Numbered from the stretch's first letter, positions 10,108 through 63,981 are shown. The stretch is DNA of 64,000 bases from Candidatus Nanoarchaeia archaeon (GCA_028279725.1 JANQNE010000011.1:25872-89871); one strand, 5' to 3'. Program-made: numbers and translations. The notes: generated by a model not told the origin, from the letters alone.

Positions 10108-10119
10108 ACAAAAACACCC

Positions 10120-11034: not shown

Positions 11035-11070
11035 GAAGAAGTTGTTATATTTAAATTATTAGATTCTCAA

Positions 11071-11163
11071 TGTATAACACGCTACGTTCTATTCTGGAAT
11101 GGATCTGTTTCAGATTCTAGTATTTTTATAACTCTGTCCGAGAACTTCGCTTGGTGTTATGCA
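11071..11163 (+). repeat. Copy 1 of a ~94-nt structured hairpin element (candidate ncRNA family)
   Basis: Terminal inverted repeat tgtataacac/gtgttatgca (10 bp, one G-U). Conserved internal GCTACGT..., CAGATTCTAG and ...ACTTCGCTTG shared with the copies at 48763-48857 and 59005-59097; inner 4-bp helix GTTC/GAAC. Confidence 0.55.
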
Positions 11164-11171
11164 CTTTAGGA

Positions 11172-14311: not shown

Positions 14312-14342
14312 CTTTTTAAATAGAGAGTTCTTGTTTTGTCCT

Positions 14343-28738: not shown

Positions 28739-31404
28739 TTTTGCCTATCAAGCTCTTTTTTTGCAATATCTTTTCTAAAAAACATGCCGTCGAAGTTTAT
28801 GTCATTTATTTTTGTGTATGCTGTATCGACGGCATCTTTAAGGGTTGATCCTAATGTGATTACATTTAATACTCTTCCTCCATTTGTGAGGATCTTTCCG
28901 TTATCTTTCTTTGTTCCAGCGTGAATCACCTGTGCTCCACTTATGTTATCTAAACCTTTTATCTCTTTTCCCTTTTCATATGAACCAGGATAACCTCCTG
29001 ATGCTAGTACTATGCTTACGCAGTGTTTTTCAGACCAGTCTAGTTTCATAGCTCCTAGTTTCTTGTCTATTACTGCGTTCATTACGTCAAGTATATCATT
29101 GTTTAATCTTGGAAGGATAACCTGTGTTTCCGGATCTCCAAATCTGCAGTTGAATTCTAAGATCTTTAGGCCGTCTTTTGTTTTCATAAGTCCGACGTAG
29201 AGGACTCCTTTGTATTCTATGCCTTCTGCTTTTGTTCCAGCTATGAATGGCTTAATTATCTTTTCTTCCATCTCTTTTTCAAGTCCGTCTAATATTGGTG
29301 CTGGTGAGTAAGCTCCCATCCCTCCTGTATTAGGGCCTTTGTCTCCTTCATAGATTGGTTTGTGATCCTGTGAATATACCATTGGCTTGAATGTTTCTGA
29401 GTCTACGAAGACTAAGTAGGACCCTTCTTCACCTACAAGACATTCTTCTACAACTATTGATGAAGATGCATCTCCGAATTTGTTTGCTTTTAGGCATTCT
29501 TCTGCAAACTTTACTGCTTCTTCTACTGTGTTTGCGACAAGAACTCCTTTTCCAGCAGCTAGTCCGTCTGCTTTTACGACAATTGGTGCTCCCTGCTTTT
29601 CGATGTATGCTTTTGCTTTTTCAAAATCAGTGAATTCATCAAATTCAACTGTTGGAAGATTATATTTTTTCATGAATCTTCTTGCAAATGCTTTTGATCC
29701 TTCAAACTGTGATGCTTTTTTGTTAGGGCCGAAGACTCTTATCCCTGCTTTTTCAAGTTCGTCAGCTGCTCCGTTAACTAGCGGAGCTTCTGGACCTATG
29801 ATTGCAAGATCTATCTTCTTTTCTTTTGCAAACTTGACTAAAGCTTCATTATCATTTTGGTCGATATCATGACAGCAAGCTACCTGGCCAATACCTGGAT
29901 TTCCCGGGACTGCGTATAGTTTGTTTAATCTGTCAGATTCTGTGACTTTTAATGCAATAGCATGCTCTCTTCCGCCTGAACCAACTATCATTACGTTAAG
30001 TTTGGTGTCTAATGTTGTCTGCTCTTCTGTTCTCTGGCAACCAAGGCATTGCTGCTGTGATTCTGATACTGGTTCTGGGTATTCTCCTGTTAAACATGCC
30101 ATACATACATCCCTCCTTGTAGCATTCTTGATATTATCAACTGTTGCATATACTAAATTATCTGCTTCAAGATATTCTCTTATCTGTTCTATTGATTTAT
30201 CTGAAGCTATAAGCTCTTTTTTTGTCGCCATGTCTATCCCATAGAAGCATGGGAATTTTATAGGAGGACAAGCAGAAACAAATGTAACTTTTCTAACTCC
30301 TCCATCTTTTAATGTTCTTACTATCCTTTTTGATGTTGTTCCCCTTACAATGCTGTCATCAACTACAGCAACACTCTTGTTTTCAAGTATACTTATTACA
30401 GGCCTTAGTTTTCTTCTTACTGAGTCATGCCTTGTCTTTTGTGATGACATTATGAATGTTCTTTGTATATATTTATCTTTGATCAGACCTTCCCTATATT
30501 TTACAGCAAGATCTTCACTTAATTTTATAGCAGCTGTCCTTCCTGAATCTGGAACTGGGACTACAACATCGATGTCTTTTTGGTCCATCTGCTCGCTCAT
30601 CAGTTTTCCAAGAGCTAATCTTGTCTTGTATACTGATCTGTTCTCTATCATGCTGTTCGGGCTTGCAAAATATATCCATTCAAACATACAATGAGCTTTT
30701 TTCTCCTGTTTTAGGATCTTGCTTTCTATAACCAAGTCTTTTGAGATAAAAACAGCTTCTCCTGGCTCTATATCTCTGACATAATCATGATCAATAACCT
30801 GAAATGCTACAGTTTCTGAAGCAAATATGTATGAATCTCCTCTCTTTCCGAGAACTAAAGGCCTTATGCCTCTTGGATCTCTTATCGCGAATATACCTTT
30901 GTCTGCTATCATTCCAACAATTGAGTAAGCTCCTCTTACCTTATCCATGAAGTGCTTTGCAGCTGCAAAGAAATCTCCATGCTGTTCGTAATGCTCTGCG
31001 AATATTCTTAGAAGAACTTCACCGTCAACAGAGGTTTCAAGATGTTTTCCTTTTTTTTGGAATTCTTCTTTTAGGTCGAAGTAGTTTATTGTGTTTCCGT
31101 TCTGAGCCATAGCAACTTTTGGGTTGATCTTTGTTGTAAGAGGTTGTGCGTCGCACAACATTCCTTTTCCCTGTGTTGCATATCTTGTGTGGCCGATGCC
31201 CATCTTCCCTTGTAATAGGTTTGCGTCTCTTGCCTTGAATACTCTGTGAACAGCATCCATCTCTTTTTTTGTGAAGAATTCGTCTTTTACGTTTGTTACT
31301 ATGCCGCATGCATCCTGGCCTCTATGCTGCAATGACATCAAGCTAGTTACTGCATCCTCAAAAACTTCATCATCTTTTGAAACAATACCAATAATTCCGC
31401 ACAT
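28735..31404 (-). CDS. Fusion of amidophosphoribosyltransferase (PurF, Fe-S type) and phosphoribosylamine--glycine ligase (PurD)
   Basis: N-terminus MCGIIGIV (Ntn Cys1), PRTase VVDDSIVRGTTS, Fe-S ligand regions CMFEWIYFASP and CMACLTGEYP. After a short linker comes LNVMIVGSGGREHAIALKV (PurD start) and the ATP-grasp C-terminal half. 889 aa. Confidence 0.85.
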   Translation of the reverse strand: MCGIIGIVSKDDEVFEDAVTSLMSLQHRGQDACGIVTNVKDEFFTKKEMDAVHRVFKARDANLLQGKMGIGHTRYATQGKGMLCDAQPLTTKINPKVAMAQNGNTINYFDLKEEFQKKGKHLETSVDGEVLLRIFAEHYEQHGDFFAAAKHFMDKVRGAYSIVGMIADKGIFAIRDPRGIRPLVLGKRGDSYIFASETVAFQVIDHDYVRDIEPGEAVFISKDLVIESKILKQEKKAHCMFEWIYFASPNSMIENRSVYKTRLALGKLMSEQMDQKDIDVVVPVPDSGRTAAIKLSEDLAVKYREGLIKDKYIQRTFIMSSQKTRHDSVRRKLRPVISILENKSVAVVDDSIVRGTTSKRIVRTLKDGGVRKVTFVSACPPIKFPCFYGIDMATKKELIASDKSIEQIREYLEADNLVYATVDNIKNATRRDVCMACLTGEYPEPVSESQQQCLGCQRTEEQTTLDTKLNVMIVGSGGREHAIALKVTESDRLNKLYAVPGNPGIGQVACCHDIDQNDNEALVKFAKEKKIDLAIIGPEAPLVNGAADELEKAGIRVFGPNKKASQFEGSKAFARRFMKKYNLPTVEFDEFTDFEKAKAYIEKQGAPIVVKADGLAAGKGVLVANTVEEAVKFAEECLKANKFGDASSSIVVEECLVGEEGSYLVFVDSETFKPMVYSQDHKPIYEGDKGPNTGGMGAYSPAPILDGLEKEMEEKIIKPFIAGTKAEGIEYKGVLYVGLMKTKDGLKILEFNCRFGDPETQVILPRLNNDILDVMNAVIDKKLGAMKLDWSEKHCVSIVLASGGYPGSYEKGKEIKGLDNISGAQVIHAGTKKDNGKILTNGGRVLNVITLGSTLKDAVDTAYTKINDINFDGMFFRKDIAKKELDRQK

Positions 31405-37287: not shown

Positions 37288-38244
37288 CTATGACACCTTA
37301 AATCTATTCTTAGTAATAGAAGTTATGTCTTCTCCAACTGCCTTATTTACAATATCTCTTAGAAAGTTTATTGACTCATCTTCCCCAATATCTTTTAATT
37401 CATTTAATATGACTCTAATCTTATTTTTTCCATATGTTTCTTCAATATATTTCCAAAAACAATATCCTGTGTAATACCAGTAAATACGTGGATTTTCAGG
37501 AGCTTTTGATAAATCTGAATAATCATGTACTCTTTTTATTTGAGGATCCCCAAAGTCTGATCCATACCACCCATCACTTCTACACTCAATTCCTATGGCT
37601 CTTCTTTCCTGCTCATCTATATAAGTTGCTATCCCTTCGTTCGCCCACCCAGGAATAATGGTATCTGAAACAAATACATGGGTCATTTCATGTAAGTTTA
37701 AACAAACTTGTTCTTCATAGATTTTCTCTTTAAAATAACCCTCATTATCAACTCGTCTTTTATAAGCTTCCATATTAAGAAAAGTCGTTACCCCACTAGA
37801 TGTAGCTCCTGAGAATGTGTTCTCATCATCTCCGACCAAAACTAGATAATAAATAAATTCAGACTTTGTAGAATTGGGCAAATCAATTCCTAATTCTTTC
37901 TTCAGGAATTTGATACAAGTTAAAGAATCTTGCAAATAATCTTCAGCTAACCACTTACCAAATTCCTTGTTGTAAACTATAGTTACATTCTCTCTAGAGA
38001 TTATATCTTCATCTTCACCAGGAACCCCTTCGCAATCTATATAACATCTTTGCCAAGTCTCTTTACCATTGCATATTCCATCACCACAAAAAGGAGGTCT
38101 TTCTTCTTTGACTTTCTCATACTCATTAATAACAGCTGGTGCTTCTTCCTCAATAATTATGATGGGGGTGTCTTTCTCCTTAGTTTCCTGATAAGCACAA
38201 CCAGTAATCAATAAAACAAAAACTATGAAAACGACTTTTATCAT
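37288..38244 (-). CDS. Putative lipoprotein, gluzincin-like zinc metalloprotease
   Basis: Signal/lipobox-like N-terminus MIKVVFIVFVLLITGCAY; HEMTH zinc motif with a downstream Glu (NEGIATY) at gluzincin spacing. Confidence 0.45.
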   Translation of the reverse strand: MIKVVFIVFVLLITGCAYQETKEKDTPIIIIEEEAPAVINEYEKVKEERPPFCGDGICNGKETWQRCYIDCEGVPGEDEDIISRENVTIVYNKEFGKWLAEDYLQDSLTCIKFLKKELGIDLPNSTKSEFIYYLVLVGDDENTFSGATSSGVTTFLNMEAYKRRVDNEGYFKEKIYEEQVCLNLHEMTHVFVSDTIIPGWANEGIATYIDEQERRAIGIECRSDGWYGSDFGDPQIKRVHDYSDLSKAPENPRIYWYYTGYCFWKYIEETYGKNKIRVILNELKDIGEDESINFLRDIVNKAVGEDITSITKNRFKVS

Positions 38245-41909: not shown

Positions 41910-44900
41910 ATGAAGGATTTAAGCAGATATCTAGATAAATTTAGAGGCGATTCTGTTAGGTTAGATAGACCTAGCCTTGATGATGATATCCGGACTATAG
42001 TATTCAATTATGAGCCTTTTGTTCTTGATTGGAAAAATTTTAGGAAACTGGAAAGAGATACTGAAAGAGAAGCAGAAGAAGTCTATAAGCAAAGAGCTCT
42101 GAATGGAGACACCTATACTGATATTGAAAAACAGTTTAAAGATGACCCAAAAGGAAGATATGATGCTACGAAAGATAGAGACTGGGTTGAAGGAAAGGTA
42201 AAAGCGTTCAGGCCGGAGATAAAAAGAGCTCTTGAGAGCAAATCAATAATAGGTATTAGACCTGACCAGGAAGATCTTGAGTCTATCTGTATGGATAGGA
42301 ACATCACTTTAGTTGGAAAAGAAGTTGTAGGTATTAATTCTGAATTTATGGTGGGAAATGACATCATACTTTTGGAGACCGAAGTATATGAAAAGGTCTG
42401 TGAGAGGCTAAAAGAAAGCGATGATAAATCAAAAGAGAATGCAGTAGCTACAATCAAGGAAGTTATTGAAGAAGAACTTACTAAAGAGAAACCAAAACTG
42501 CTGATAGTTGATAATGAAATGGGAGAAAGATTGAGGATGACTGAAATAGCTCTAAAATGCGGGTTTAGCACTCGAATAGCTGAAAATCCAGAACAGGCAT
42601 TTCAGATGCTTGAAAAAGAAAAAGACATTGGTACGATAATAACAGGTGATATATTTCCTGGAACTAATGGGCTTGATTTCATAATGGAGCTTAGAAAGAG
42701 AGGAGGAGAACAGCATGCAATACTTGTATCAGATGAGCAGTTCATAGAAAAGGAATATGAAGGAAAAAACCATAAAGAACTGCTTCAGGCAAATGTGAGA
42801 GTTATTGAGAAAGGAGGAAATACAGATCCAGAGATAAGAAGTGAATTTCTTAATGCTAAAGGTAAGATGGATCTTATGGCTGAGAAGACAGATGTACGTA
42901 TAGAGGAGAAAGATTCAAAGATACCAACCTTTGCAGATTTTGAGAATAAGATAAGAGATTACAACAGCAATTCTGGAAAGCTTATAATGCTTGATTCGAA
43001 TGATATCAATGAAGTTATTACATCATTCAAGAGCAAGTTTAAAACACCCGAAGATTATATCACACTTTCAACTTTGAATAATGAAGATATGAAATACATA
43101 TTGACTGTTCCACGTATACTTAAGATTGAAGAGAATGGTGTGGAAGATAAAGCTATCGACCATATGATGGATGTTTTGGATCCTGAGGAAAGAAATCTAG
43201 GAAATGTTCTTGGAAAATTCTATGAAAAGATAAAAGAAGGATGGACTGGAGAAGATGTACAGGAGCTGCTTCGTTCAATCCTACGAAAAGAAGATGTAGG
43301 AGAATCTATCAAGAGTATTTACAGAAATAGAAAGGGTATGGATGATGAAGTAGTCATTGAAAGGAATATGAGAGAAGGTTCTGATTTTAGAACTTCTATA
43401 TTTTTCAGCTATAAGAATGCAGGAAGAGTGGCTGAAAGATACAATCATTATAGTGAGGATAAAAGGATAAAGTATAATCTTGGAATTACAACAGAAAGAG
43501 TAAGCTGGGTTGCAAAGAACAATGCACTGCTTGCCAGGTATCTTGAGATGTTTGGTGCTGCAAAAGGGAAAGTTGAACATGACAGTCTTGTCAATATAAT
43601 AAATCAGGACAGAAAGGATGATGTTGTGAGCATCAAGGAATCAAAGATTACAGTAGATTCAAAATATCATGTTTACGAAGTTACATCAACTTATGGAGAA
43701 AATGAAAAAAGACACAGCATAGTAAAATTCATAACTAATCCAGATTCATTTGAAAGGGAAGTCTATAACTATAATTATTTCAAGAGATTTGACGGAATAA
43801 ATGATGCGAATAGTCTGGTAACTACAACAGTGGAGGATGAAGAAGGAAACAAGAATTATGTTGTTGTACTTAATTTTAAGGAAGGAGTGGAGCCTAGACA
43901 GAATCTTATGACTACTTTTGAAAATATAAGAGAGAGTATCAAGACAGGAGGAGATGATGTTAAGAAAGAGCTTAATGATAAGGCAAATAAAGTAGGGATA
44001 CAGGCTATGTCTGATGTAGGAAGAGTACATGGTGTTGCTCCTGAACTAAAAGGAGATACATACACTTCATTCTATGGTGATTTTAAAAAATACCTTCATT
44101 TCAGGATAGGAGAGTTCCAAGATAATCTTACTGACCTTGTAAAACAGCTTGCTACTGAATTTAAAGATCATATACAAAAGAACTCATCAAGAGTTAAATC
44201 AAACTCTTATTCACTTGTTGAATATCTAGCAAGCATGGATACAACTTTCTATAAGGATACTGTAACAAAGAACATGACTCCTATGGGGGAGGAAGGAGGG
44301 AAGAACTCAGGCAGGTTTGCATCAGTTGATTATGGAGAAGTCAGAAAACTTCCACTGACTTTTGATGTTGCAAATGCAGTACATACTATGTACATACCTG
44401 ATATCAGGGTTGCTGAGGAAGATGGAACAATAGATCAGATGCTGATATCCTATCTTAGTGGATATTGTGAAGGAAGAACATCGTACAATAATGAAGTTAT
44501 GAAGAAGAAAAATGTAAAAAAATATCTTGTAGATAATCTTGAAAGGATGAGAAAAGGGACAGGAAATGAAAGTGTAAGGGAGAATCTATCTGATCTTCTT
44601 AAGATAATAAAGAAGGAAGAGCCAAAACATAAGAGCAGGAAAAAGAAGATGGCATTTTATAAGGATATCATGTCTGGATTTGCTGAGTCAAGCGGATCAG
44701 ATGAGTTAAAAAGAGTTGTAGCGAATGAGATCAAATATTTTGATGAAATAGAAGATAAACCTGACCCATATTTTGGGAAGCTTAAGATCAGGACAAGCAC
44801 TGCGAAAGGAAGAAGAAACAAAAGATATGAGATCATAAGCGATAAATTAAAAGGACCAAGAGATAGGTGGTCAACTAAATTGAATGATGCGTTCGAAAGA

Positions 44901-45212
44901 TTCAAAGCAGATTTCTATGTAAGTATGGCATACAGAGGACAGGTTATAGCAAATACTGTTCCAGTCTATATATTATCAGATCATAATATCAACAAGCAGA
45001 GGAGGGATTATTTTTCATCTGTTATGGGAAATACTACTCAAGCATTAGAGATACTTAGTGAGAAATATATCGGAAAAGAAAAAGGAATGTACTTAAGGAG
45101 AGAGCTAGATGGCGATAAGCTTAATGAAGTTAAGAATGCACTTTCAGATATCAGGAATATATTTGAAAAGATAGATCCGGGGGCTGTTAAGAATGCCGAA
45201 TACAAAGCTTGA
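41910..45212 (+). CDS. Large (1100-aa) multidomain protein with an embedded CheY-like receiver domain; remainder of unknown function
   Basis: Receiver-like segment KLLIVDNE...TGDIFPGTNGLDFIMELRK...HAILVSD...IEKG fits the REC pattern (acidic pocket, DxxxPxxNGxxF, S/T, K). The flanking ~400-aa N-terminal and ~600-aa C-terminal regions have no assignable motifs. Confidence 0.55.
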   Translation: MKDLSRYLDKFRGDSVRLDRPSLDDDIRTIVFNYEPFVLDWKNFRKLERDTEREAEEVYKQRALNGDTYTDIEKQFKDDPKGRYDATKDRDWVEGKVKAFRPEIKRALESKSIIGIRPDQEDLESICMDRNITLVGKEVVGINSEFMVGNDIILLETEVYEKVCERLKESDDKSKENAVATIKEVIEEELTKEKPKLLIVDNEMGERLRMTEIALKCGFSTRIAENPEQAFQMLEKEKDIGTIITGDIFPGTNGLDFIMELRKRGGEQHAILVSDEQFIEKEYEGKNHKELLQANVRVIEKGGNTDPEIRSEFLNAKGKMDLMAEKTDVRIEEKDSKIPTFADFENKIRDYNSNSGKLIMLDSNDINEVITSFKSKFKTPEDYITLSTLNNEDMKYILTVPRILKIEENGVEDKAIDHMMDVLDPEERNLGNVLGKFYEKIKEGWTGEDVQELLRSILRKEDVGESIKSIYRNRKGMDDEVVIERNMREGSDFRTSIFFSYKNAGRVAERYNHYSEDKRIKYNLGITTERVSWVAKNNALLARYLEMFGAAKGKVEHDSLVNIINQDRKDDVVSIKESKITVDSKYHVYEVTSTYGENEKRHSIVKFITNPDSFEREVYNYNYFKRFDGINDANSLVTTTVEDEEGNKNYVVVLNFKEGVEPRQNLMTTFENIRESIKTGGDDVKKELNDKANKVGIQAMSDVGRVHGVAPELKGDTYTSFYGDFKKYLHFRIGEFQDNLTDLVKQLATEFKDHIQKNSSRVKSNSYSLVEYLASMDTTFYKDTVTKNMTPMGEEGGKNSGRFASVDYGEVRKLPLTFDVANAVHTMYIPDIRVAEEDGTIDQMLISYLSGYCEGRTSYNNEVMKKKNVKKYLVDNLERMRKGTGNESVRENLSDLLKIIKKEEPKHKSRKKKMAFYKDIMSGFAESSGSDELKRVVANEIKYFDEIEDKPDPYFGKLKIRTSTAKGRRNKRYEIISDKLKGPRDRWSTKLNDAFERFKADFYVSMAYRGQVIANTVPVYILSDHNINKQRRDYFSSVMGNTTQALEILSEKYIGKEKGMYLRRELDGDKLNEVKNALSDIRNIFEKIDPGAVKNAEYKA

Positions 45213-54503: not shown

Positions 54504-55877
54504 TTATATAATATTTAATTGTAATCTTCTTTCTATCTCTTTACCAATCAACCTGTAATATTCTTTTAATGTAATTTCTCCATAATCTTTTCTTGCAGCC
54601 CTGTCGATGTAATAACACAGAGTGGTATTTAAGTAGTGATCATACATTCCTGTTGTTCCTAACAGGCTATCAAGTTTTCTAACACCTATATCAATCACTT
54701 CGATATAACGCGGAATTGGCATCTTATTATGCCTTACTAAGATGCTAGGGTCCTTACCATAGATATATTTCTTCATTTTCTTTGCATAAAAATCAAGCAG
54801 TTCTCTTCTGTCAACCGGAACTTTAACATTCAGATGGTGGGATTTAACACATATGCATCTTTCTTCTAATCTTTGCCCAGTCCTGTAATCATAAACATGT
54901 TTTAATGCGATAACTTCATAGTTTTTTTCTCTTTTTCTGATTGCAGCAAGTTCATCATCTGTTAGTTTTATAGCAACAGCATTAAATTTATGACCTATGG
55001 AAGCAGAAATGTTCAGTACAGCAACTCTATTTGCCTTAATATCTTCATCTGTTTCCCATTTCTTTCTGGTGGCGATCTTGTTAAATACTCTTTTATAACC
55101 TACCACCCACACAGGTGTTAATCTGGCTTTGAATTCTGCAGCTAAATCCTTTATAGGAGTTCCTGCTTTTTCTAAAGTTGATCTTAGTTCATCTATAGTT
55201 TCATCTGCATTCATCAGGCTGCCATAGCCAACCAAAGAATATGTGAAATTTCTTGGGTATTCTTCTTCAATATTTTTGGTCTCTTCTTTAGCAATCTCTG
55301 CTAATTCCTTTTCTTTTCCCAGGATTATCCCTTCTTGTCTGATGAGGGTCTCAAATTCATGAAAGTTCTTGATGAAAGAAGGGGGATTATCTAGGTGTTT
55401 TTTTAACCACCCCATCTGTTTTTGTAATACTGAAACCAGATTCCTTAGACTTTCGTGAAGGATATTAAGATCTGAATATTCCCGAAGAGTTAATTTAAAC
55501 AACTTCCTATTAGTTTTCCATCTAACCAGCAGGTCCTTTAAGATGTTTAATGCCTTACTTGAATATTTTTCCTCTGTTTTCTCATAATTTTCTTCAAGCC
55601 CAATAACCCGTAGAAGTTTCCTTGTTTCATTAAAGATGGCCTTTCCACCAAATGCAGTGATTTTACCTTTTTTCTGCTCGTCTCTACATCTTTTGATAAA
55701 AGCCAGTTTTCTCCTGTACCTGTCTTCCAAAGAATAAAATACCTTTAGCATGTCCTTTAAATTATCATCCAGTTTGTTTAACATATTAGAACTTTTTTTT
55801 GAGATGAATATGTCAAATATCATATAGGTGGGAAATATGTGGGTGAGGTATATAAAATTTTCTACTCGTCTGATCAA
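54504..55877 (-). CDS. Protein with gamma-glutamylcyclotransferase (AIG2/GGCT-like) domain plus N-terminal helical region
   Basis: YSLVGYGSLMN (cf. YFAYGSNM) and VVGYKRVF (GYRL/F) with downstream ...ELAAIRKREKNYEV (EG..Y.R-like), in residues ~205-330 of a 457-aa protein. Confidence 0.45.
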   Translation of the reverse strand: MIRRVENFIYLTHIFPTYMIFDIFISKKSSNMLNKLDDNLKDMLKVFYSLEDRYRRKLAFIKRCRDEQKKGKITAFGGKAIFNETRKLLRVIGLEENYEKTEEKYSSKALNILKDLLVRWKTNRKLFKLTLREYSDLNILHESLRNLVSVLQKQMGWLKKHLDNPPSFIKNFHEFETLIRQEGIILGKEKELAEIAKEETKNIEEEYPRNFTYSLVGYGSLMNADETIDELRSTLEKAGTPIKDLAAEFKARLTPVWVVGYKRVFNKIATRKKWETDEDIKANRVAVLNISASIGHKFNAVAIKLTDDELAAIRKREKNYEVIALKHVYDYRTGQRLEERCICVKSHHLNVKVPVDRRELLDFYAKKMKKYIYGKDPSILVRHNKMPIPRYIEVIDIGVRKLDSLLGTTGMYDHYLNTTLCYYIDRAARKDYGEITLKEYYRLIGKEIERRLQLNII

Positions 55878-55917
55878 AAGAAAAAATATTTAAACCCCTG
55901 TTACTTTAGCCTTATAA

Positions 55918-56928
55918 ATGGAAAAACGAAAAAGAGGAAGGAAAGACAAAAAGCTAGTTCTGTTCAGGAAGTTGAAAAAGATAGAGAGTGAGGTATTTAA
56001 TGACGGGTTTACATACCTGGTAAGCTTATTGAGATATCCAAATCACAGGAGTTTCCAGTACGGGACTTTAGAGCATATATACAAGAAAAGGAATGAGGGT
56101 TCTTTCAAGAATTTCTTTTTTGATAAGAAGTTGTATCAGCTTGTTAAGAAGGAGATTGAAATTCTTTATCCAAAATATAAAAGGATAAGGATAATCATAA
56201 CAAGGTATGGTATAATGGTGTGTGATAATTATAGGCCTAATAACTTTAATGTGTTGCTTCTGACTATCCATGCCGGAAGGTGGGCTCCTGAGAATATCGA
56301 AAAGAAGATGAGATTGACCAGGACAGGAAGGTTTAGGGAGGAAGATATCGACTCTGACAGGATATATTCTAATATTGTTCTTGAGAGAGGAGGTATATGG
56401 ATCAACTCTAAACTTTCAAGATATGTCTGTGACCTTAACAGGCCACAGAACAGGTGCATATATTTCAAGAAAGATGAGAAATGGATAGATAACGATATCT
56501 GGGATGATGATCTTACAAATAAAGAGATAACACAGATAAACAGGTGGCATCAGGATTTTTATGTTACACTACATAAAGTGTTGGAGACGTATAAGTTCAA
56601 TATAATATTTGACGGGCATACTATGAAAGACAGGCCTGGAAGACCAACGATAAGTTTTGGTACAAAGCATATATCTCCATTCTATATGCCTGTTGTGAGA
56701 GCGATGAAAAACAGGCTTAAGAAAGTGGGGTATAAAGATACTTTTTTCAACAGGCCTTATGGCGGTGGTTTCATTTTGAAATGGCTGAAGACCAAATTCC
56801 AGGATAAGTTTATATTCTCTATGGAGATAAACAAGAAAGAATATATGAATAAAGACAGGACTAAGACAAAGAAGGATAAGGTTGAAAGGTTAAGCCATGA
56901 GATAACACAGATATTTGATATAAAATGA
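55918..56928 (+). CDS. N-formylglutamate amidohydrolase (FGase/HutG-like) family protein
   Basis: LLTIHAGRWAPE (HxGxxxP), CDLNRPQN (DxNR) and a later FDGHTM His motif, typical of the FGase fold. Confidence 0.45.
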   Translation: MEKRKRGRKDKKLVLFRKLKKIESEVFNDGFTYLVSLLRYPNHRSFQYGTLEHIYKKRNEGSFKNFFFDKKLYQLVKKEIEILYPKYKRIRIIITRYGIMVCDNYRPNNFNVLLLTIHAGRWAPENIEKKMRLTRTGRFREEDIDSDRIYSNIVLERGGIWINSKLSRYVCDLNRPQNRCIYFKKDEKWIDNDIWDDDLTNKEITQINRWHQDFYVTLHKVLETYKFNIIFDGHTMKDRPGRPTISFGTKHISPFYMPVVRAMKNRLKKVGYKDTFFNRPYGGGFILKWLKTKFQDKFIFSMEINKKEYMNKDRTKTKKDKVERLSHEITQIFDIK

Positions 56929-58325
56929 AGATAATAAACACGACAAAGAAGCAGAGCAATAAAAGGCCTTTGAAAAAGGCAAAGACCGGGCTGGAAGTAG
57001 AGATGTTTGTCATAGATAAAAAAGGAGATATGACACAGAAAGGATATTCTCTTGTGAAAAATGTCAAGAAAATAGAGGGAGAAGTTGAGATTGTAAAAGA
57101 AGTCGGAATGAATATGATCGAGTTCGGGTGTTATCCTAGTGTTAATACATACAACCCCGCGTTGGAACTGATCGAGTCTATAGAGAAGACAATAAAGATT
57201 GCAAAGAAAGATGGATTATTGCTATATCCTTTTGGAACTTATCCTGGAACCTCTGAATCAAAGCTTACTCCAGACACAAGAGGGCACTATAAGATCAAGA
57301 AGAAGATATTTGGAGATAAGAAATTTCCATTAGCAACAAAAGCGATAGGATTTCATCATCACTATGCTCTTCCTAAAGGGGTGTTTAATTACGAGAAGAA
57401 GGAATTAAAATTATTGATTGACAGTAAGTTGAAGAGAAGTTTGTTGAATTGCTATAATTTTGAGATCGCTATAGATCCTATATTGACGTTATTGACGCAA
57501 TCATCTCCATTTTTTGAAGGAGAACAGCTTGCTAAGGATTCGAGGATGCTGATATATAGGGGAGGAAAGAAACTAAAGTATAAGAAAGGGCTGTATCATA
57601 AGTTCCAGATATTAGGTGGGCTTCCTCCATATAAGCAGACTGAGACTGACCTGATAAGAAGTATCAAGAGGAGACAGCAGAAATGGAAGAGGCTTATAAG
57701 AAAGGCTGACAAGACTGTGAAGTTCAGGAAGATGTATCCGTTCAAGATGGATATAGGATGGAATCCTATAAAGATCAACAAGCATGGAACTTTGGAGGAA
57801 AGAGGGATGGACATGAACTACATGTCTATACTTCTTGGAGTCTCTGCTTTGATCAAGTTCTGTCTTAAGAAGATACAGAGAGATTTTATCGAGGTCATAC
57901 CTTCTGATATCGGGATAAAGGAGCCTTTCAAGATAAGGAAAGGTGTGATGTTTATCCCGCCGCATACACATATCAGGGAAAACTTACAGAAAGCCAGCGC
58001 TTATGAAGGATTTGATAATGATGAGCTTTACGAATATACAAAAGCATTCTATAAGCTTGCAAAGAGCTTGTCAAGAAAGATCTATTATCCTTTGTTTGAA
58101 AGGATCGAAGGGATGATAGAGAAAAGAAAGTCTGTCTCTGATGAGATCATCGATTATGCTAAGAGGAAGAAATTAATCAATGGTGATGGAAAGATATCAA
58201 ACAAGAATGCAAAAGTTCTTGCATTGTATCTGTCTAAGAAGTTTGAGAGGGACCTTAAGGAGACAAAGAAGATAGTAAAGGAGATAATGACGAAGCATAA
58301 AAGACAGATCAAGACTAAAAGATGA
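56925..58325 (+). CDS. Carboxylate-amine ligase, glutamate-cysteine-ligase family 2 (GCS2/YbdK-like)
   Basis: N-terminal TGLEVEMFVIDKKGD (cf. TxGxEEEFxLVD) and size (466 aa) consistent with the GCS2 family; start overlaps the upstream stop. Confidence 0.5.
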   Translation: MKIINTTKKQSNKRPLKKAKTGLEVEMFVIDKKGDMTQKGYSLVKNVKKIEGEVEIVKEVGMNMIEFGCYPSVNTYNPALELIESIEKTIKIAKKDGLLLYPFGTYPGTSESKLTPDTRGHYKIKKKIFGDKKFPLATKAIGFHHHYALPKGVFNYEKKELKLLIDSKLKRSLLNCYNFEIAIDPILTLLTQSSPFFEGEQLAKDSRMLIYRGGKKLKYKKGLYHKFQILGGLPPYKQTETDLIRSIKRRQQKWKRLIRKADKTVKFRKMYPFKMDIGWNPIKINKHGTLEERGMDMNYMSILLGVSALIKFCLKKIQRDFIEVIPSDIGIKEPFKIRKGVMFIPPHTHIRENLQKASAYEGFDNDELYEYTKAFYKLAKSLSRKIYYPLFERIEGMIEKRKSVSDEIIDYAKRKKLINGDGKISNKNAKVLALYLSKKFERDLKETKKIVKEIMTKHKRQIKTKR

Positions 58326-58969
58326 TAAAGGCTATCGTATTTGATATGGACGGAGTAATAGTTGATTCTGAGAAGTTGCACTTTCAGGCCTGGAAAATTC
58401 TTTTTAAGCAGGAGAAAGGTATTGAGATCGATGAAAAATATTTTAAGAAGATGGTCGGAACTACAGATCTTTTTACAGTCAGACATTTTTTCAGGAAATA
58501 TAAGATAAGGGGAAATATCCAGGAATGGAGGATGAAGAAGAAAAGAATCATACTCAAGATGTTTAGGGAGAAAGGGAAGATCTTTCCAGGGGTTAAACAT
58601 ATTATCAGGAAGCTGAGCGCTAAGTATAAGATGGGATTAGCTACAGGAGCCTGGAGAGCATCAGCTAATGTTGTGATGAAGAAGTTTGATCTTAAGCAGT
58701 ATATCTCTAAGATGGTCACGAAAGAAGATGTCAGGAATCATAAGCCGCATCCTCAGGCTTATCAGAAGATGGCAAATCTTTTAGGGGTTGATGAGAAAGA
58801 GTGTGTTGTATTTGAGGATTCTGTGCCTGGAATATTGGCTGCAAAAAGAGCTAAATGCAAATGTATCGCTGTTACAAACAGCCATCCTGCAGCAAAGCTG
58901 AAGAAAGCTGACCTGGTTGTGAAGGATCTTAGGGATAAGAGGATAGGAAAGTTTATTAGTTCTTTATAG
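58322..58969 (+). CDS. HAD-superfamily hydrolase, subfamily IA (beta-phosphoglucomutase/phosphatase-like)
   Basis: Motif I AIVFDMDGVIVDSE (DxDGV), motif II in LATGAW, motif IV VVFEDSVPGILAAKRA; 215 aa. Confidence 0.8.
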   Translation: MIKAIVFDMDGVIVDSEKLHFQAWKILFKQEKGIEIDEKYFKKMVGTTDLFTVRHFFRKYKIRGNIQEWRMKKKRIILKMFREKGKIFPGVKHIIRKLSAKYKMGLATGAWRASANVVMKKFDLKQYISKMVTKEDVRNHKPHPQAYQKMANLLGVDEKECVVFEDSVPGILAAKRAKCKCIAVTNSHPAAKLKKADLVVKDLRDKRIGKFISSL

Positions 58970-60507: not shown

Positions 60508-61404
60508 TCATATCTTCTTCAATAATTCCTTGAATTGCTGATCAGATCCTGATAGGTTTCTTGGATCATTTAAAATCTCATGTAGCTGTATCTGAGCGTC
60601 AGTCCAGTCTTTAATCACCTGTCTGTCTTTTAACAGGGTTTTAGGCTCAGATTTTTTCAATCTCTCCATGCCATTCATGCTGACCACTCCTAATCCATCT
60701 ACTTTGATACTGTATCTTATCCCATTCCCATCTAATACTCTGGAGAAATAATTTATGGCACTTCCTGCAGAACCATCAGGGATAGAGAATAATCCTCCAC
60801 TAGACTGAGCATTCTTTATCAAAAGATAAGACAATGCTGGTGCTGATGAGTTAACCTCTTCAACGATCTTCTTAGTGTCAGCTCCAGTACCAGACAGATG
60901 GTTTATCCTGTTGGCTATATTGATTATCCTTTTAGTGGAAAAGCTCTCAAAATTATAAGGACTGTATCCTTCTGGAAGATCTACACTTCCATAAACTTTT
61001 ATCAATGTGTCTAAACCTTCTTTGAATGTTTCTGCTGCTTCTTTTGCGATCCCAGCACCATATTTTCCAAATGTAAGATTTGAAGCAAGACCTATGTACT
61101 TGTGGGCGTTTTCTATATCCTGTGCCTTATCAAATTTCTCTACAAAGAAATCCATATCTTTTATCCTGTCATGCATCCCTGCCCTGTATGCATAATCCAT
61201 CCCAAGAGATATGCAGCCTTCATAAGAAGGAGACTTGTCTACCTTATGCTGATAGTGTTCTGGAATACTGAAATTGCCCAACAATGAGGTATGGACTACA
61301 GAACGTAATGCTTCGTTAAATAATAGAGCTTTAGCTGATGGATCATGCTTTGCAAAACTCTCTACTGTGCTGAAATAAAGGTTATTTATTTCTCTTTCCT
61401 TCAT
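60508..61404 (-). CDS. Hypothetical protein
   Basis: 298-aa ORF, good coding potential, no assignable motifs. Confidence 0.45.
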   Translation of the reverse strand: MKEREINNLYFSTVESFAKHDPSAKALLFNEALRSVVHTSLLGNFSIPEHYQHKVDKSPSYEGCISLGMDYAYRAGMHDRIKDMDFFVEKFDKAQDIENAHKYIGLASNLTFGKYGAGIAKEAAETFKEGLDTLIKVYGSVDLPEGYSPYNFESFSTKRIINIANRINHLSGTGADTKKIVEEVNSSAPALSYLLIKNAQSSGGLFSIPDGSAGSAINYFSRVLDGNGIRYSIKVDGLGVVSMNGMERLKKSEPKTLLKDRQVIKDWTDAQIQLHEILNDPRNLSGSDQQFKELLKKI

Positions 61405-61852: not shown

Positions 61853-63301
61853 ATGGTGTTTTGTATGGCTGAGAAAGAGGAGAACATCGGTATAACTGTG
61901 AAAAAAGAGGATGATATGCCAGAATGGTATTCTCAAGTCTGCCAGAAAGCTGAACTGGCTGATACTTCTTCGATAAAAGGATTTATGGTCATAAGGCCAA
62001 ATGGTTATGGCATATGGGAAAATATCCAGGATTATTTTAACAAAGTGATAAGAGAGAGAAAAGTAAGGAATGCTTATTTTCCACTTCTTATTCCTGAGAG
62101 TTTTTTTAAGAAAGAGGCAGAACATGCAGAAGGGTTTGCTCCTGAGCTTGCCTGGGTTGGCGGAGCTGCTGAGGAAGGAGAAGAAAGATTAGCTATAAGG
62201 CCTACATCTGAAACTATAATGTATGATTCTTATTCAAAGTGGATCAGATCATATAGGGACCTTCCTTTGAGGATAAACCAATGGTGTAATGTTCTTAGAT
62301 GGGAAGTTAAGCAGACTAAAGTTTTTTTGAGAACAAGAGAGTTTTTGTGGCAGGAAGGGCATTGTGTATATGAAACAGAGGAAGAATGTGATAAGGAAGT
62401 TTATATGTTCTTAGATGAATATAAGAGATTAGCTGAGGAGCAGCTAGCTGTTCCTGTGCTTACTGGAAAGAAAACTGAGAAAGAGAAGTTTGCTGGTGCG
62501 AAATATACTACTACAATAGAAGCTTTTATGCCGGACGGAAAAGCATTGCAGTGTGGAACTTCACATAATCTTGGGCAAGGGTTTGCTGAAGGTTTTGGAA
62601 TCAGATATATAGGAAAGGATGAGAAAGAACACATACCTTGGCAGAACAGCTGGGGATTTTCTACAAGACTGATCGGAGCTATAATCATGACCCATGGAGA
62701 TAATAAGGGAATGGTCATGCCTCCTAGAATTGCAAAAGATAAGATCGTAATTGTTCCTATATTGTTTGATAAGACAAAGAAAGAAGTTTTGAAAAAGGCT
62801 GATGAGCTTGAGAAGAAATTATCAGAGTATGGAGTTATTGTTGATGACAGAGAAGGATACAGCCCTGGATGGAAGTATAATGAATGGGAGATGAAAGGAG
62901 TTCCTTTGAGATTAGAGGTCGGCCCTAAGGATATCGAGAAAAAGCATGTAGTTGTTGTAAGAAGAGATAATGGAAAGAAGGAATTTGTGAAAGAAGCTGA
63001 TCTTATAAAGAGGATACCTAAGATAATTGATGAGATGCATGGTGATATGTTCGCTAAAGCGAAGAAACATCTTGATGAAAGTATTGTAGAAGTTAAGAGC
63101 TGGGAAGAGTTTGAAAAAGTAGTAAAGGAAAATAAGATCGCTAAAGCACCTTTCTGCGGAGAGGGGGAATGTGAAGACTGGATAAAGGATAAGTCAGGCG
63201 GAATCACTTCAAGATGTGTTGCTGAAGGCAAGCCAAAAGATAAGTGTGTCCAGTGCGGAAAGAAAGCTGAAGAGTTTGTGTATTTCTCAAAGAGTTACTG
63301 A
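61853..63301 (+). CDS. proS: Prolyl-tRNA synthetase, archaeal/eukaryotic type (class II, C-terminal zinc-binding domain)
   Basis: MPEWYSQVCQKAEL...IKGFMVIRPNGYGIWE...FPLLIPESFF matches the archaeal ProRS N-terminus; class II motifs follow; C-terminal CVQCGKKAEEFVYFSKSY. Confidence 0.85.
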   Translation: MVFCMAEKEENIGITVKKEDDMPEWYSQVCQKAELADTSSIKGFMVIRPNGYGIWENIQDYFNKVIRERKVRNAYFPLLIPESFFKKEAEHAEGFAPELAWVGGAAEEGEERLAIRPTSETIMYDSYSKWIRSYRDLPLRINQWCNVLRWEVKQTKVFLRTREFLWQEGHCVYETEEECDKEVYMFLDEYKRLAEEQLAVPVLTGKKTEKEKFAGAKYTTTIEAFMPDGKALQCGTSHNLGQGFAEGFGIRYIGKDEKEHIPWQNSWGFSTRLIGAIIMTHGDNKGMVMPPRIAKDKIVIVPILFDKTKKEVLKKADELEKKLSEYGVIVDDREGYSPGWKYNEWEMKGVPLRLEVGPKDIEKKHVVVVRRDNGKKEFVKEADLIKRIPKIIDEMHGDMFAKAKKHLDESIVEVKSWEEFEKVVKENKIAKAPFCGEGECEDWIKDKSGGITSRCVAEGKPKDKCVQCGKKAEEFVYFSKSY

Positions 63302-63981
63302 ATCAGTTTTTTTGTTTTTTTTCTATAGTCCAGAGTGATATGGTCTCCGTTATATAAGTTCTCTTCTGAAATGTATACTTTATTATCTTTGATCTTTACG
63401 TCTGTAAATTTTTCTCTGCGACATGCATCTATCCTTTTCGCTGTAAACTCATAATTTCTTAAGTCAAAAGGAAACTCAAAAACGCCGTCATATTTATTTG
63501 TCAGTTCAATAAATTTGTGCTCAAAATAATCCTCTTTTATTGTTCCGTGATTTAAGTCACTCATACATGTAGGATGTACAGATAATATCTCAACTTTGTA
63601 TTTTTTCCCCTGTTTTAGCTTGTATTTTATGATGTACTGCACTCTCTTGTCTTCCTCTTCATGGCTTGTTATATCCCTTCCAAATTTCAATAAATAACCA
63701 TCCAGCCTAACTTCTATCTTGTAGTTGCTATTTTCTCCTGTGGGTGTTCCTCTAAAAAAATGATAATGGATATTGTCCTCTAAAGCCTTGATATAAACAG
63801 TGGTTCTTTCTACCACATACATATTGTATTGTTTATCTTTTTTATTCGAGTCATAAACCATCTTGCTTAAGGTGGTCATCCCAAGCACATGATAAGGGTG
63901 CGGCCTCTGTAGATGAATAAGCTGTGAGAGCAGAGTATTCTCTGAGTCCTCTATGCCTAATATCCTTCTGAAACCATTCAT
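63295..63981 (-). CDS. Hypothetical protein (may extend beyond window end)
   Basis: 228-aa ORF convergent with proS; no recognisable motifs. Confidence 0.4.
   Translation of the reverse strand: MNGFRRILGIEDSENTLLSQLIHLQRPHPYHVLGMTTLSKMVYDSNKKDKQYNMYVVERTTVYIKALEDNIHYHFFRGTPTGENSNYKIEVRLDGYLLKFGRDITSHEEEDKRVQYIIKYKLKQGKKYKVEILSVHPTCMSDLNHGTIKEDYFEHKFIELTNKYDGVFEFPFDLRNYEFTAKRIDACRREKFTDVKIKDNKVYISEENLYNGDHITLDYRKKTKKLIQ

What the first reader, a model, noticed from the sequence alone, without database searches (positions are those of the whole stretch)
54504..58969. GGCT-like, FGase-like, GCS2 carboxylate-amine ligase and HAD phosphatase cluster: possible minimal gamma-glutamyl-peptide cycle
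A gamma-glutamylcyclotransferase-fold protein (minus strand) is divergent from three overlapping plus-strand genes: an N-formylglutamate-amidohydrolase-family hydrolase, a glutamate-cysteine-ligase family 2 enzyme and a HAD phosphatase. GCS2 enzymes make gamma-glutamyl amides (gamma-Glu-Cys in haloarchaea). GGCT enzymes break them into 5-oxoproline. FGase-family enzymes hydrolyse N-acyl-glutamate-type bonds. Together they could synthesise and turn over a gamma-glutamyl compound (thiol cofactor or osmolyte) not described for this lineage.
Basis: inference. Interest (0 to 1): 0.5.

Follow-up and report, generated by a model that had tools for sequence, protein, structure and literature searches.

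The report
Archaeal ligase–amidase pair with γ-glutamylcyclotransferase neighbour
A tiny uncultivated archaeon carries a conserved pair of enzymes, one that builds and one that cuts an amide bond, next to an enzyme of the type that breaks down glutathione-like compounds; together they probably make and recycle an unidentified small glutamate-containing compound.

Summary

- **p3** is a carboxylate-amine ligase of the YbdK/glutamate-cysteine-ligase fold. Its hallmark metal- and phosphate-binding residues are invariant, but it is only ~14% identical to characterised enzymes.
- **p2** is a clear FGase-family amidohydrolase. It is not a HutG orthologue.
- **p1** has no direct Pfam hit. Profile links, conserved YGSL and Arg-Glu-x-x-Tyr motifs, and a predicted structure show an N-terminal helical bundle followed by a ChaC/GGCT-fold domain.
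- **p4** is an ordinary HAD-IA phosphatase.

Co-conservation splits the cluster:

- **FGase then ligase** is the conserved core. It recurs in many Woesearchaeota/Nanoarchaeota contigs with different flanking genes.
- **p1** belongs to a very rare family. It sits beside this pair in three different arrangements out of six known contexts, so it is probably an accessory.
- **The HAD gene** is never co-conserved and is best treated as a passenger.
- **A second ligase**, a circularly permuted ATP-grasp related to glutathionylspermidine synthase, joins the ligase in some relatives.

No 5-oxoprolinase or cysteine genes were found among the window ORFs scanned.

The most likely reading is synthesis and turnover of an unidentified γ-glutamyl-type amide or small peptide. 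The substrate is unknown, and the "minimal γ-glutamyl cycle" idea is only partly supported.

The parts
56925..58325 (+). p3: 466-aa carboxylate-amine ligase of the GCS2/YbdK/GCL fold. It belongs to a DPANN-specific subfamily and is the core of the system.
   Evidence: Pfam GCS2 22.3 bits against cutoff 21. 230 homologues, and the named ones are almost all Woesearchaeota/Nanoarchaeota. Invariant residues E24, E26, E59, E66, H144, H146, R207, R212, E291, R293. The family profile aligns the ExE, HxH and GTxExRxxD motifs to YbdK 1R8G. AF2 model pLDDT 93; Foldseek top hits are YbdK and plant GCL.
55918..56928 (+). p2: 336-aa FGase-family (PF05013) metal-dependent amidohydrolase with a ~110-aa conserved N-terminal extension. 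It is the conserved partner of p3, and its stop overlaps the p3 start by 4 nt.
   Evidence: Pfam FGase 72.4 bits, full profile coverage. HutG equivalog only 24 bits against 278.75. Invariant residues H118, D143, R168, D172, N174, R175, D232, H234, E303 across 21 orthologues. Adjacent to the ligase in 28 of 87 loci, and again in L089, L091, L092 and L093 fetched afterwards.
54504..55253 (-). p1 C-terminal domain (aa ~191-439 plus stop): ChaC/GGCT-fold γ-glutamylcyclotransferase-like domain. It carries YGSL (aa 200-203), R245, and R298-E299-x-x-Y302.
55254..55823 (-). p1 N-terminal ~190 aa: helical-bundle domain of unknown role. The probable true start is the ATG at 55823.
55824..55917 (.). 94-bp AT-rich divergent intergenic region between p1 and p2, with TATA-like boxes roughly 25-35 bp upstream of each start codon. 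This is the presumed pair of divergent archaeal promoters.
   Evidence: Sequence read directly. Promoter function is inferred, not tested.
58322..58969 (+). p4: 215-aa HAD-IA phosphatase (β-phosphoglucomutase/YqaB-like). It is translationally coupled to p3 in this genome only and is probably a passenger.
   Evidence: HAD_2 134 bits. TIGR02009 142 bits, below its cutoff of 153. DMDG motif read from the sequence. No homologue in any related locus.

Best explanation
The functional unit is the operon pair p2 (FGase-family amidohydrolase) followed by p3 (GCS2/YbdK-fold ATP-dependent carboxylate-amine ligase). This pair is conserved in Woesearchaeota and Nanoarchaeota.

- **p3** most likely activates a carboxylate as an acyl-phosphate with ATP and Mg2+ and joins it to an amine. 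By family analogy the carboxylate is the γ-carboxyl of glutamate or of a glutamyl compound, and the product is a γ-glutamyl-type amide or small peptide.
- **p2** hydrolyses an N-acyl-glutamate or γ-glutamyl-type amide bond of that product or its precursor, either to mature it or to recycle it.
- **p1**, a ChaC-like domain fused to a helical bundle, is a lineage-restricted accessory. It would cleave the γ-glutamyl compound into 5-oxoproline plus the free amine, providing turnover.
- **In some relatives** a second ligase (GSP_synth / circularly permuted ATP-grasp type 2) and an Amidohydro_2 enzyme extend the pathway. This parallels GshA plus the ATP-grasp GshB in glutathione synthesis.
- **p4**, the HAD phosphatase, is co-transcribed here but is not part of the conserved system.

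What is shown: folds, conserved catalytic residues and gene linkage. What is inferred: substrate identity, product, and the direction of flux.
For: **p3**
- Fold and catalytic residues match the family.

**p2**
- It passes the FGase model, and its His/Asp/Glu/Arg residues are invariant.

**The p2-p3 pair**
- The two genes overlap by 4 nt.
- FGase is by far the most frequent neighbour family of the ligase: 28 of 87 loci, usually immediately upstream on the same strand, amid unrelated flanking genes.
- Among distinct ligases at least 45% identical to the window's with at least 1.2 kb on both sides, 9 of 14 have FGase within 2 kb.
- Four loci fetched afterwards also carry the pair: L089, L091, L092 and L093.

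**ATP-grasp partner**
- Adjacent to the ligase in L001, L004-L007, L011 and L049.

**p1**
- YGSL, R245 and the catalytic-type E299 are conserved, and the fold is GGCT.
- p1 homologues flank FGase-ligase in three different gene orders: the window, L045 and L089.
- The family is extremely rare: 16 representatives at E<1e-10 among 1.84 billion.
- A weak GGCT-like ORF also ends the ligase / ATP-grasp / amidohydrolase operon of L011.
Against: - No substrate evidence exists. p3 is ~14% identical to YbdK and GCL and far below the NCBIfam GshA/YbdK cutoffs.
- Many ligase homologues have neither FGase nor ATP-grasp nearby. This applies mainly to those under 45% identity, but also to the close relatives L008 and L012.
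- p1 occurs without the pair in L088, L090 and L094.
- No 5-oxoprolinase was found to close a cycle among the ~30 window ORFs of at least 150 aa that were scanned.
- The p1 model has only moderate confidence, pLDDT 72.
- The metal ligands of FGase were inferred from conservation, not from a structural alignment. The PDB profile search found no FGase entry.
Confidence: 0.45

Rival explanations
1. A low-molecular-weight thiol pathway. p3 is a true γ-glutamylcysteine ligase, as GCS2-family GshA is in haloarchaea. The ATP-grasp in relatives plays the GshB or glutathionylspermidine-synthase role, and p1 is the ChaC-type degrader. DPANN archaea would then make γ-Glu-Cys or a glutathione-like peptide.
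For: - The closest folds are YbdK and GCL.
- ChaC-family enzymes characterised so far are glutathione-specific (PMC12756093).
- The partner ATP-grasp matches Pfam GSP_synth.
- A protein with a weak glutaredoxin-domain match lies about 3 kb upstream of the pair's FGase gene in L092.
Against: - There is no sequence-level orthology to any GshA or YbdK model: 14-23 bits against cutoffs of 176-437.
- No cysteine-biosynthesis, glutathione-reductase or 5-oxoprolinase genes were found among the window ORFs scanned.
- The role of FGase is unexplained in a thiol pathway.
- The ATP-grasp is absent from this 64-kb window.
Confidence: 0.15
2. Only p2 and p3 work together. p1 and p4 are unrelated neighbours, and the apparent four-gene cluster is an accident of a compact genome.
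For: - The HAD gene is never co-conserved.
- p1 is missing from nearly all FGase-ligase loci and stands alone in L088, L090 and L094.
- The closest syntenic relative, L091, has a radical-SAM gene where p1 sits and Alba directly after the ligase.
Against: p1's family is very rare, yet three of its six known contexts place it within one gene of the FGase-ligase pair, each time in a different order and orientation. That is very unlikely by chance in genomes of roughly 1000 genes. This last step is an inference, not a computed probability.
Confidence: 0.2
3. A compatible-solute module. The ligase makes a glutamate-derived amide osmolyte, FGase and p1 degrade it on osmotic down-shift, and the HAD enzyme might dephosphorylate a phosphorylated precursor, as in many solute pathways.
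For: - In L089 the FGase / ligase / p1 block is flanked by Na/Ca exchangers, a K-channel-like gene, CorA and MscS.
- In L090 the p1 homologue sits next to inositol-1-phosphate synthase, di-myo-inositol-phosphate synthesis genes and MscS.
- The distant ligase subclade is repeatedly next to MscS, a glycosyltransferase and a Na/H exchanger.
Against: - Ion channels and exchangers are common genes, and no statistical test was done.
- None of these neighbours is present in the window.
- HAD linkage is unique to this genome.
Confidence: 0.12
4. A peptide- or protein-tagging system, or a cell-envelope peptide system. Like PafA and Dop of the same superfamily, the ligase would attach a glutamate-ending peptide to a protein or to an envelope peptide, and FGase would remove it.
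For: - Dop and PafA appear among the fold matches.
- The carboxylate-amine ligase superfamily includes the Pup ligase (PMC2588565).
- In L091, FemAB-like and LPG_synthase_C-like genes lie just upstream of the pair. The window holds such genes together with Ddl-like and RimK-like ligases at 8-16 kb.
Against: - Dop and PafA matches are much weaker than those to YbdK and GCL (E about 1e-3 against 1e-11).
- No conserved small Pup-like ORF accompanies the ligase.
- The Fem/LPG link is seen in one locus only.
Confidence: 0.06

Closest known systems
YbdK / GCS2 family carboxylate-amine ligases (E. coli YbdK 1R8G; plant GCL 2GWC; haloarchaeal GshA)
   Same: Same fold (top Foldseek hits, TM-score 0.73 against YbdK). 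The same ExE, E, HxH and GTxExRxxD metal- and phosphate-binding motifs are present.
   Different: About 14% identity. The Pfam match is marginal and N-terminal only. It is far below all NCBIfam YbdK/GshA cutoffs. It is about 90 aa longer than YbdK, with a long C-terminal helical region. It is restricted to DPANN-type MAGs. Substrates are unknown.
Predicted small-peptide synthesis systems that combine a GCS2-like COOH-NH2 ligase with a circularly permuted ATP-grasp type 2 and a peptidase (Iyer, Abhiman, Burroughs & Aravind 2009, Mol Biosyst; Pfam PF14403 description). This is recalled from memory; the paper is not held in the library.
   Same: Relatives of the window's ligase sit next to a GSP_synth/CP_ATPgrasp_2 protein and amidohydrolases. 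The logic is the same: two ligases plus hydrolases.
   Different: The constant partner here is an FGase-family amidohydrolase, not the α/β-hydrolase, GAT-II or M20 peptidases recalled for that system. The ATP-grasp is absent from this window. A ChaC-like cyclotransferase is added in a few genomes.
N-formylglutamate amidohydrolase HutG (histidine utilisation)
   Same: Same Pfam family PF05013 with full-length profile coverage.
   Different: HutG equivalog score is 24 bits against a cutoff of 278.75. No hut genes were found among the window ORFs scanned. It has an extra ~110-aa conserved N-terminal region. It is always paired with a ligase rather than with hut genes.
ChaC / GGCT γ-glutamylcyclotransferases (human ChaC1/2, GGCT; E. 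coli ChaC)
   Same: GGCT fold. YGSL motif, conserved Arg and catalytic-type Glu in an R-E-x-x-Y context.
   Different: No direct Pfam ChaC, GGACT or AIG2 hit. It is fused to a ~190-aa N-terminal helical bundle and carries insertions in the catalytic domain. The family is extremely rare.
γ-Glutamyl 'handle' pathways: butirosin BtrJ/BtrG, ergothioneine EgtA/EgtC, PuuA/PuuD (named from general knowledge)
   Same: An ATP-dependent ligase installs a γ-glutamyl group, and a cyclotransferase or amidohydrolase later removes it. The enzyme classes are the same as p3, p1 and p2.
   Different: No tailoring, oxidising or transfer enzymes accompany the genes here, so there is no sign of what would be done to a glutamylated intermediate.

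Membership tests
GCS2 / YbdK carboxylate-amine ligase (PF04107) | Matches the family HMM above the curated threshold | tested here: met
   22.3 bits against a cutoff of 21, but only residues 22-131. This is marginal. The family profile hits YbdK 1R8G at E 7e-5.
GCS2 / YbdK carboxylate-amine ligase (PF04107) | Glutamine-synthetase-like/GCL fold | tested here: met
   AF2 model pLDDT 93. Foldseek top hits are 1R8G, 2GWC and 1TT4, with E about 1e-11 and TM-score against target 0.62-0.74.
GCS2 / YbdK carboxylate-amine ligase (PF04107) | Conserved acidic, His and Arg residues that bind Mg2+/ATP and the acyl-phosphate (ExE on strand 1, a later Glu, HxH, GTxExR) | tested here: met
   E24, E26, E66, H144, H146, E291 and R293 are invariant in 34 homologues and align to the corresponding YbdK motifs.
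Glutamate-cysteine ligase (GshA / YbdK equivalogs, NCBIfam) | Score above the equivalog or subfamily cutoff, i.e. orthology to enzymes with known γ-Glu-Cys activity | tested here: not met
   Best scores are 14-23 bits against cutoffs of 176-437.
Glutamate-cysteine ligase (GshA / YbdK equivalogs, NCBIfam) | Uses L-glutamate and L-cysteine as substrates | not testable with these tools
   This needs an enzyme assay.
FGase, N-formylglutamate amidohydrolase family (PF05013) | Matches the family HMM above threshold over its full length | tested here: met
   72.4 bits against 28.9, profile positions 2-219 of 219.
FGase, N-formylglutamate amidohydrolase family (PF05013) | Conserved metal-binding and catalytic His/Asp/Glu residues | tested here: inconclusive
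   H118, D143, D232, H234 and E303 are invariant in 21 orthologues. No alignment to a solved FGase could be obtained, so the equivalence to metal ligands is inferred.
HutG (N-formylglutamate deformylase, TIGR02017) | Equivalog score and hut-operon context | tested here: not met
   24 bits against 278.75. No hut genes were found among the window ORFs scanned.
ChaC / GGCT-fold γ-glutamylcyclotransferase | Direct match to Pfam ChaC, GGACT or AIG2-like models | tested here: not met
   No Pfam or NCBIfam hit for p1 or for its C-terminal half.
ChaC / GGCT-fold γ-glutamylcyclotransferase | Homology detectable through intermediate sequences | tested here: met
   The p1-family profile hits ~170-aa proteins at E 1e-11 to 1e-4. 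Of these, P0150, P0147 and P0142 pass the Pfam ChaC model. The homologous-protein run with the A4 profile also returned P0178 and P0179, whose precomputed Pfam domains are PF04752 and PF06094.
ChaC / GGCT-fold γ-glutamylcyclotransferase | GGCT fold | tested here: met
ChaC / GGCT-fold γ-glutamylcyclotransferase | YGSL substrate-binding motif, conserved Arg and catalytic Glu (ChaC1 YGSL38-41, R72, E115) | tested here: met
   In 439-aa numbering, Y200-G-S-L203, R245 and E299 (within R298-E299-x-x-Y302) are invariant or nearly invariant. Reference residues come from PMC12756093. Positional equivalence rests on the alignment with ChaC-positive proteins.
HAD-IA phosphatase (PF13419) | HMM match and the DxDG nucleophile motif | tested here: met
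   HAD_2 134 bits and HAD-SF-IA-v3 81 bits against 29.4. The sequence 'FDMDGVIVDS' is at residues 7-16.
γ-Glutamyl cycle (as a system) | A 5-oxoprolinase to reconvert 5-oxoproline to glutamate | tested here: not met
   No hydantoinase/oxoprolinase or PxpABC-type domains were found in the ~30 window ORFs of at least 150 aa that were scanned. The rest of the genome was not available.
γ-Glutamyl cycle (as a system) | Co-conservation of all four genes in relatives | tested here: not met
   FGase plus ligase: yes. p1: three loci only. HAD: none.

The most novel reading that the evidence does not exclude
Woesearchaeota and Nanoarchaeota (DPANN) make a previously unknown γ-glutamyl peptide or amide, for example a glutathione-like thiol or a glutamyl-amide solute. 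The machinery would be a self-contained system of a divergent GCL-like ligase, an optional GshB/GspS-like circularly permuted ATP-grasp, an FGase-type amidase and a ChaC-like cyclotransferase. That would give these minimal, host-dependent archaea their own dedicated small-molecule cofactor or protectant.
Probability: 0.15. Interest if true: 0.7.

Novelty: new variant of a known kind. Interest (0 to 1): 0.4.

Why it matters
DPANN archaea have very reduced metabolism, so any enzyme pair kept across hundreds of their genomes is likely to matter to their biology. This ligase family has at least 230 homologues, and none has been characterised.

If the FGase-ligase pair makes a γ-glutamyl compound, with the occasional ATP-grasp and ChaC-like partners adding to the pathway, it would be the first dedicated small-molecule pathway of this type described for the group. 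It would also assign functions to three uncharacterised protein families.

If the product is only a salvage intermediate, the finding is a routine annotation refinement.

Tried and rejected
- **Is p1 a divergent form of the ATP-grasp found at the same position in relatives?** Rejected. BLASTP shows no similarity.
- **Does the window contain the ATP-grasp partner?** tblastn found none in 64 kb. A RimK-like ATP-grasp at 13208-14311 is a different family and lies 43 kb away.
- **Genome-contig scan with a single protein.** The metagenome scan with an alignment gave 80 loci instead.
- **Direct PDB sequence searches.** Searches with p1, p2 and p3, and profile searches with p1 and p2, gave nothing useful.
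- **Third homologue search with a mixed alignment.** It added only four sequences, so the p1 structure had to be predicted from 13 sequences.
- **The Iyer et al. 2009 amidoligase paper.** It could not be read. Literature searches for this gene combination, or for GCL in Woesearchaeota, found nothing relevant.
- **Context of a small ChaC-like relative, P0169.** It showed no ligase link.
- **HutG/histidine-utilisation reading of p2.** Rejected.
- **Link between the Fem/LPG_synthase_C genes and the pair.** Seen only in L091.


Full report
**Observation**

- p1: 54504-55877 on the minus strand
- p2: 55918-56928, plus strand
- p3: 56925-58325, plus strand
- p4: 58322-58969, plus strand

The p2/p3 and p3/p4 boundaries each overlap by 4 nt, so the three plus-strand genes form one tightly coupled operon. 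Alignment with homologues shows p1 almost certainly starts at the ATG at 55823 (439 aa), not the upstream TTG. That leaves a 94-bp AT-rich divergent intergenic region with TATA-like boxes before each gene. Their promoter function is inferred.

The window has ~36% GC. It also carries Alba, class I LysRS, ArgRS and ProRS. Nearly all named homologues of p3 come from Woesearchaeota or Nanoarchaeota MAGs. The source is therefore a DPANN-type archaeon.

**p3, the ligase**

- *Direct family scores:* Pfam GCS2 matches only marginally: 22.3 bits against a cutoff of 21, residues 22-131. All NCBIfam YbdK/GshA models score 14-23 bits against cutoffs of 176-437.
- *Homologues:* The protein heads a well-populated family of 230 hits down to ~40% identity.
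- *Conserved residues:* In a 34-sequence alignment, E24, E26, E59, E66, H144, H146, R207, R212, E291 and R293 are invariant. A profile of that alignment hits E. coli YbdK (1R8G) at E 7e-5. It aligns the ExE strand, the HxH motif and the GTxExRxxD motif.
- *Fold:* An AF2 model with pLDDT 93 finds YbdK, its Salmonella homologue and plant glutamate-cysteine ligase as the best structural matches, with E about 1e-11. GshA/GshF, glutamine synthetases, Dop and PafA follow much further down.

p3 is therefore a bona fide, probably active ATP-dependent carboxylate-amine ligase of the GCL/YbdK branch. It belongs to a distinct, uncharacterised subfamily. Nothing identifies its substrates.

**p2, the amidohydrolase**

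- It matches Pfam FGase over the whole profile at 72.4 bits.
- It is not a HutG orthologue: 24 bits against a cutoff of 278.75.
- Twenty-one orthologues share invariant residues H118, D143, R168, D172, N174, R175, D232, H234 and E303. They also share a conserved ~110-aa N-terminal extension.
- I could not align it to a solved FGase. Calling these residues metal ligands is therefore an inference.

**p1, the cyclotransferase-like protein**

- *Sequence searches:* There is no direct Pfam, NCBIfam or PDB sequence hit.
- *Rarity:* The family is extremely rare. The word-indexed search found 8 close homologues. A full HMMER scan of 1.84 billion representatives found 16 at E<1e-10.
- *Link to ChaC:* The weaker hits of that scan are ~170-aa proteins matching profile positions ~232-326. 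Several of them pass the Pfam ChaC model: P0150 at 45 bits, plus P0147 and P0142.
- *Motifs:* A joint alignment shows that the last ~250 residues of p1 align with the whole length of these small proteins. It conserves GYGSL (200-203), R245 in an RvFN motif, N281, and R298-E299-x-x-Y302. In human ChaC1 the key residues are YGSL38-41, R72 and the catalytic E115 (PMC12756093).
- *N-terminal part:* The first ~190 residues form a helical bundle with only generic matches.

**p4, the phosphatase**

p4 is a standard HAD-IA phosphatase of the β-phosphoglucomutase/YqaB type: HAD_2 134 bits, DMDG nucleophile motif.

**Co-conservation**

I collected 87 loci around p3 homologues and clustered all their ORFs.

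*FGase*
- It is by far the most frequent neighbour family, present in 28 of 87 loci.
- It usually lies immediately upstream on the same strand and often overlaps the ligase start.
- The genes flanking the pair differ from locus to locus.
- After collapsing ligases at 90% identity and requiring at least 1.2 kb on each side, FGase lies within 2 kb in 9 of 14 ligases that are at least 45% identical to the window's. For more distant ligases the figure is 3 of 30.
- Three further close relatives looked up individually all have FGase then ligase: L091 (67% identity), L092 (64%) and L093 (75%).
- In L091 the pair is followed directly by Alba, as in the window but without the HAD gene. A radical-SAM gene sits where p1 is in the window.
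- In L093 the pair is followed directly by the rpS8e gene.

*Second ligase and amidohydrolase*
- A GSP_synth / circularly permuted ATP-grasp type 2 protein is adjacent to the p3 homologue in seven loci.
- An Amidohydro_2 enzyme lies near the ligase in about six loci. In L001 and L011 it directly follows this ATP-grasp.
- No such ATP-grasp exists in the 64-kb window.

*HAD*
- It has no homologue in any related locus.

*p1 homologues: six known contexts*
- Three contexts place p1 next to the FGase-ligase pair, each in a different arrangement:
  - in the window it is divergent from FGase;
  - in L045 it lies between FGase and the ligase;
  - in L089 it lies downstream of the ligase, followed by an Ntn-hydrolase-like gene and ion-transport genes.
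- The other three contexts lack the pair:
  - L088;
  - L090, next to di-myo-inositol-phosphate synthesis genes;
  - L094, next to pabA/B-like genes.
- Given how rare the family is, three adjacencies out of six in three different gene orders argue for a real, though facultative, functional link. This is an inference, not a computed probability.
- A weakly GGCT-like 338-aa ORF also ends the ligase / ATP-grasp / amidohydrolase operon of L011, ahead of an ABC transporter.

**Other genes in the window**

I scanned about 30 of the window ORFs of at least 150 aa against Pfam, spanning 0.8-64 kb. I found no 5-oxoprolinase, glutathione-related or cysteine-biosynthesis genes.

**Interpretation**

The conserved unit is the amidohydrolase-ligase pair. 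The most economical mechanism has four parts:
- p3 makes an amide bond through an acyl-phosphate intermediate. By analogy with every characterised member of its branch, this is most likely at a glutamate γ-carboxyl.
- p2 hydrolyses an N-acyl or γ-glutamyl-type amide in the same pathway.
- In a few lineages, p1 provides the alternative ChaC-type breakdown to 5-oxoproline plus the amine.
- Where the circularly permuted ATP-grasp is present, the system has two ligases.

That two-ligase layout has the same architecture as glutathione synthesis (GCL plus an ATP-grasp). It also resembles the 'small-peptide synthesis' systems that Iyer et al. 2009 predicted around GCS2-like ligases and CP ATP-grasp type 2. 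I recall that prediction from memory, because the paper could not be retrieved. The carboxylate-amine ligase superfamily framework, including PafA, is described in PMC2588565.

I put about 0.45 on this general model. Lower weights go to the rivals:
- the specific thiol reading: 0.15
- a compatible-solute reading suggested by repeated ion-channel and solute-gene neighbours: 0.12
- 'only p2-p3 are linked': 0.2
- a tagging or envelope-peptide role: 0.06

**Verdict**

- *Observation:* confirmed.
- *Interpretation:* partly supported. The ligase has its catalytic residues, and FGase is genuinely co-conserved with it. The four genes are not a conserved unit, the HAD gene is a passenger, the cycle lacks a 5-oxoprolinase nearby, and the substrate is unknown.
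- *Classification:* a new, DPANN-specific variant of a known kind of system, namely a GCS2-like ligase with partner hydrolases. It is built from three uncharacterised subfamilies.
- *Interest:* moderate. It is a clean, testable target for biochemistry, but not a categorical surprise.

Noticed in passing
window 8301-16424 (and 2422-3240): A cluster rich in peptide-bond-forming enzymes. It holds a FemAB-like Acetyltransf_6 protein, two LPG_synthase_C/DUF2156-like proteins, a Ddl-like ATP-grasp, and a RimK-like ATP-grasp with GSH-S_ATP similarity. It also holds a 697-aa asparagine-synthase plus diphthamide-synthase-like fusion, and a DAP epimerase lies nearby. This may indicate envelope-peptide or aminoacyl-transfer chemistry. 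In L091 the Fem-like and LPG_synthase_C genes lie just upstream of the FGase-ligase pair, but only in that locus.
   Followed up: partly
window 16540-37227: A near-complete purine biosynthesis and interconversion block. It includes apparent fusions: GATase + PRTase + GARS (28735-31404, 889 aa) and SAICAR synthetase + AIR carboxylase (23283-24782, 499 aa). This is unusual biosynthetic capacity for a DPANN-type archaeon.
   Followed up: no
window 55823-55877: The ORF finder starts p1 at a TTG at 55877, but all homologues begin at the Met encoded at 55823 ('MIFDIFIS'). The real protein is probably 439 aa.
   Followed up: yes
L061 and L065 (~10000-12900): Tandem duplicated GCS2-like ligase paralogues, followed by GlmS and a large membrane-associated protein. 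This suggests possible heterodimeric ligases in a distant subclade.
   Followed up: no
L090 8357-11575; L094 7518-9804: p1 homologues without the ligase pair sit next to other pathways. In L090 the neighbours are inositol-1-phosphate synthase, CDP-alcohol phosphatidyltransferase/NTP-transferase (di-myo-inositol-phosphate-type) genes and MscS. In L094 they are chorismate-binding/GATase (pabB/pabA-like) genes and an Aminotran_4 gene.
   Followed up: no
L011 1718-9258: A seven-gene same-strand run: ligase, CP ATP-grasp, Amidohydro_2 (with a long C-terminal helical tail), a 338-aa weakly GGCT-like protein carrying a GGYGSL motif, then an ABC ATPase and a permease. It hints at export or import of the product.
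   Followed up: partly
L034, L037, L038, L043, L048, L053, L072 and others: The more distant ligase subclade (at most 44% identity) lacks FGase. It repeatedly neighbours MscS-type channels, a ~420-650-aa glycosyltransferase and a Na/H (Kef-type) exchanger. An osmotic-stress association is possible but was not tested statistically.
   Followed up: no
L006 (CAYXZQ010000016.1): This contig is labelled as an uncultured Methanosarcinales MAG. It carries the same FGase / ATP-grasp / ligase block as the Woesearchaeota chromosome OY970338.1, with FGase 88% identical. The contig is probably mis-binned. Similarly, homologue P0034 is labelled Patescibacteria.
   Followed up: no
window 41910-45212, 60508-61404, 63295-63981, 766-1881, 37288-38244: Long ORFs with little or no Pfam annotation. 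The 1100-aa ORF has only a weak sub-threshold receiver-domain match. The other four (298, 228, 371 and 318 aa) have no Pfam match at all.
   Followed up: no
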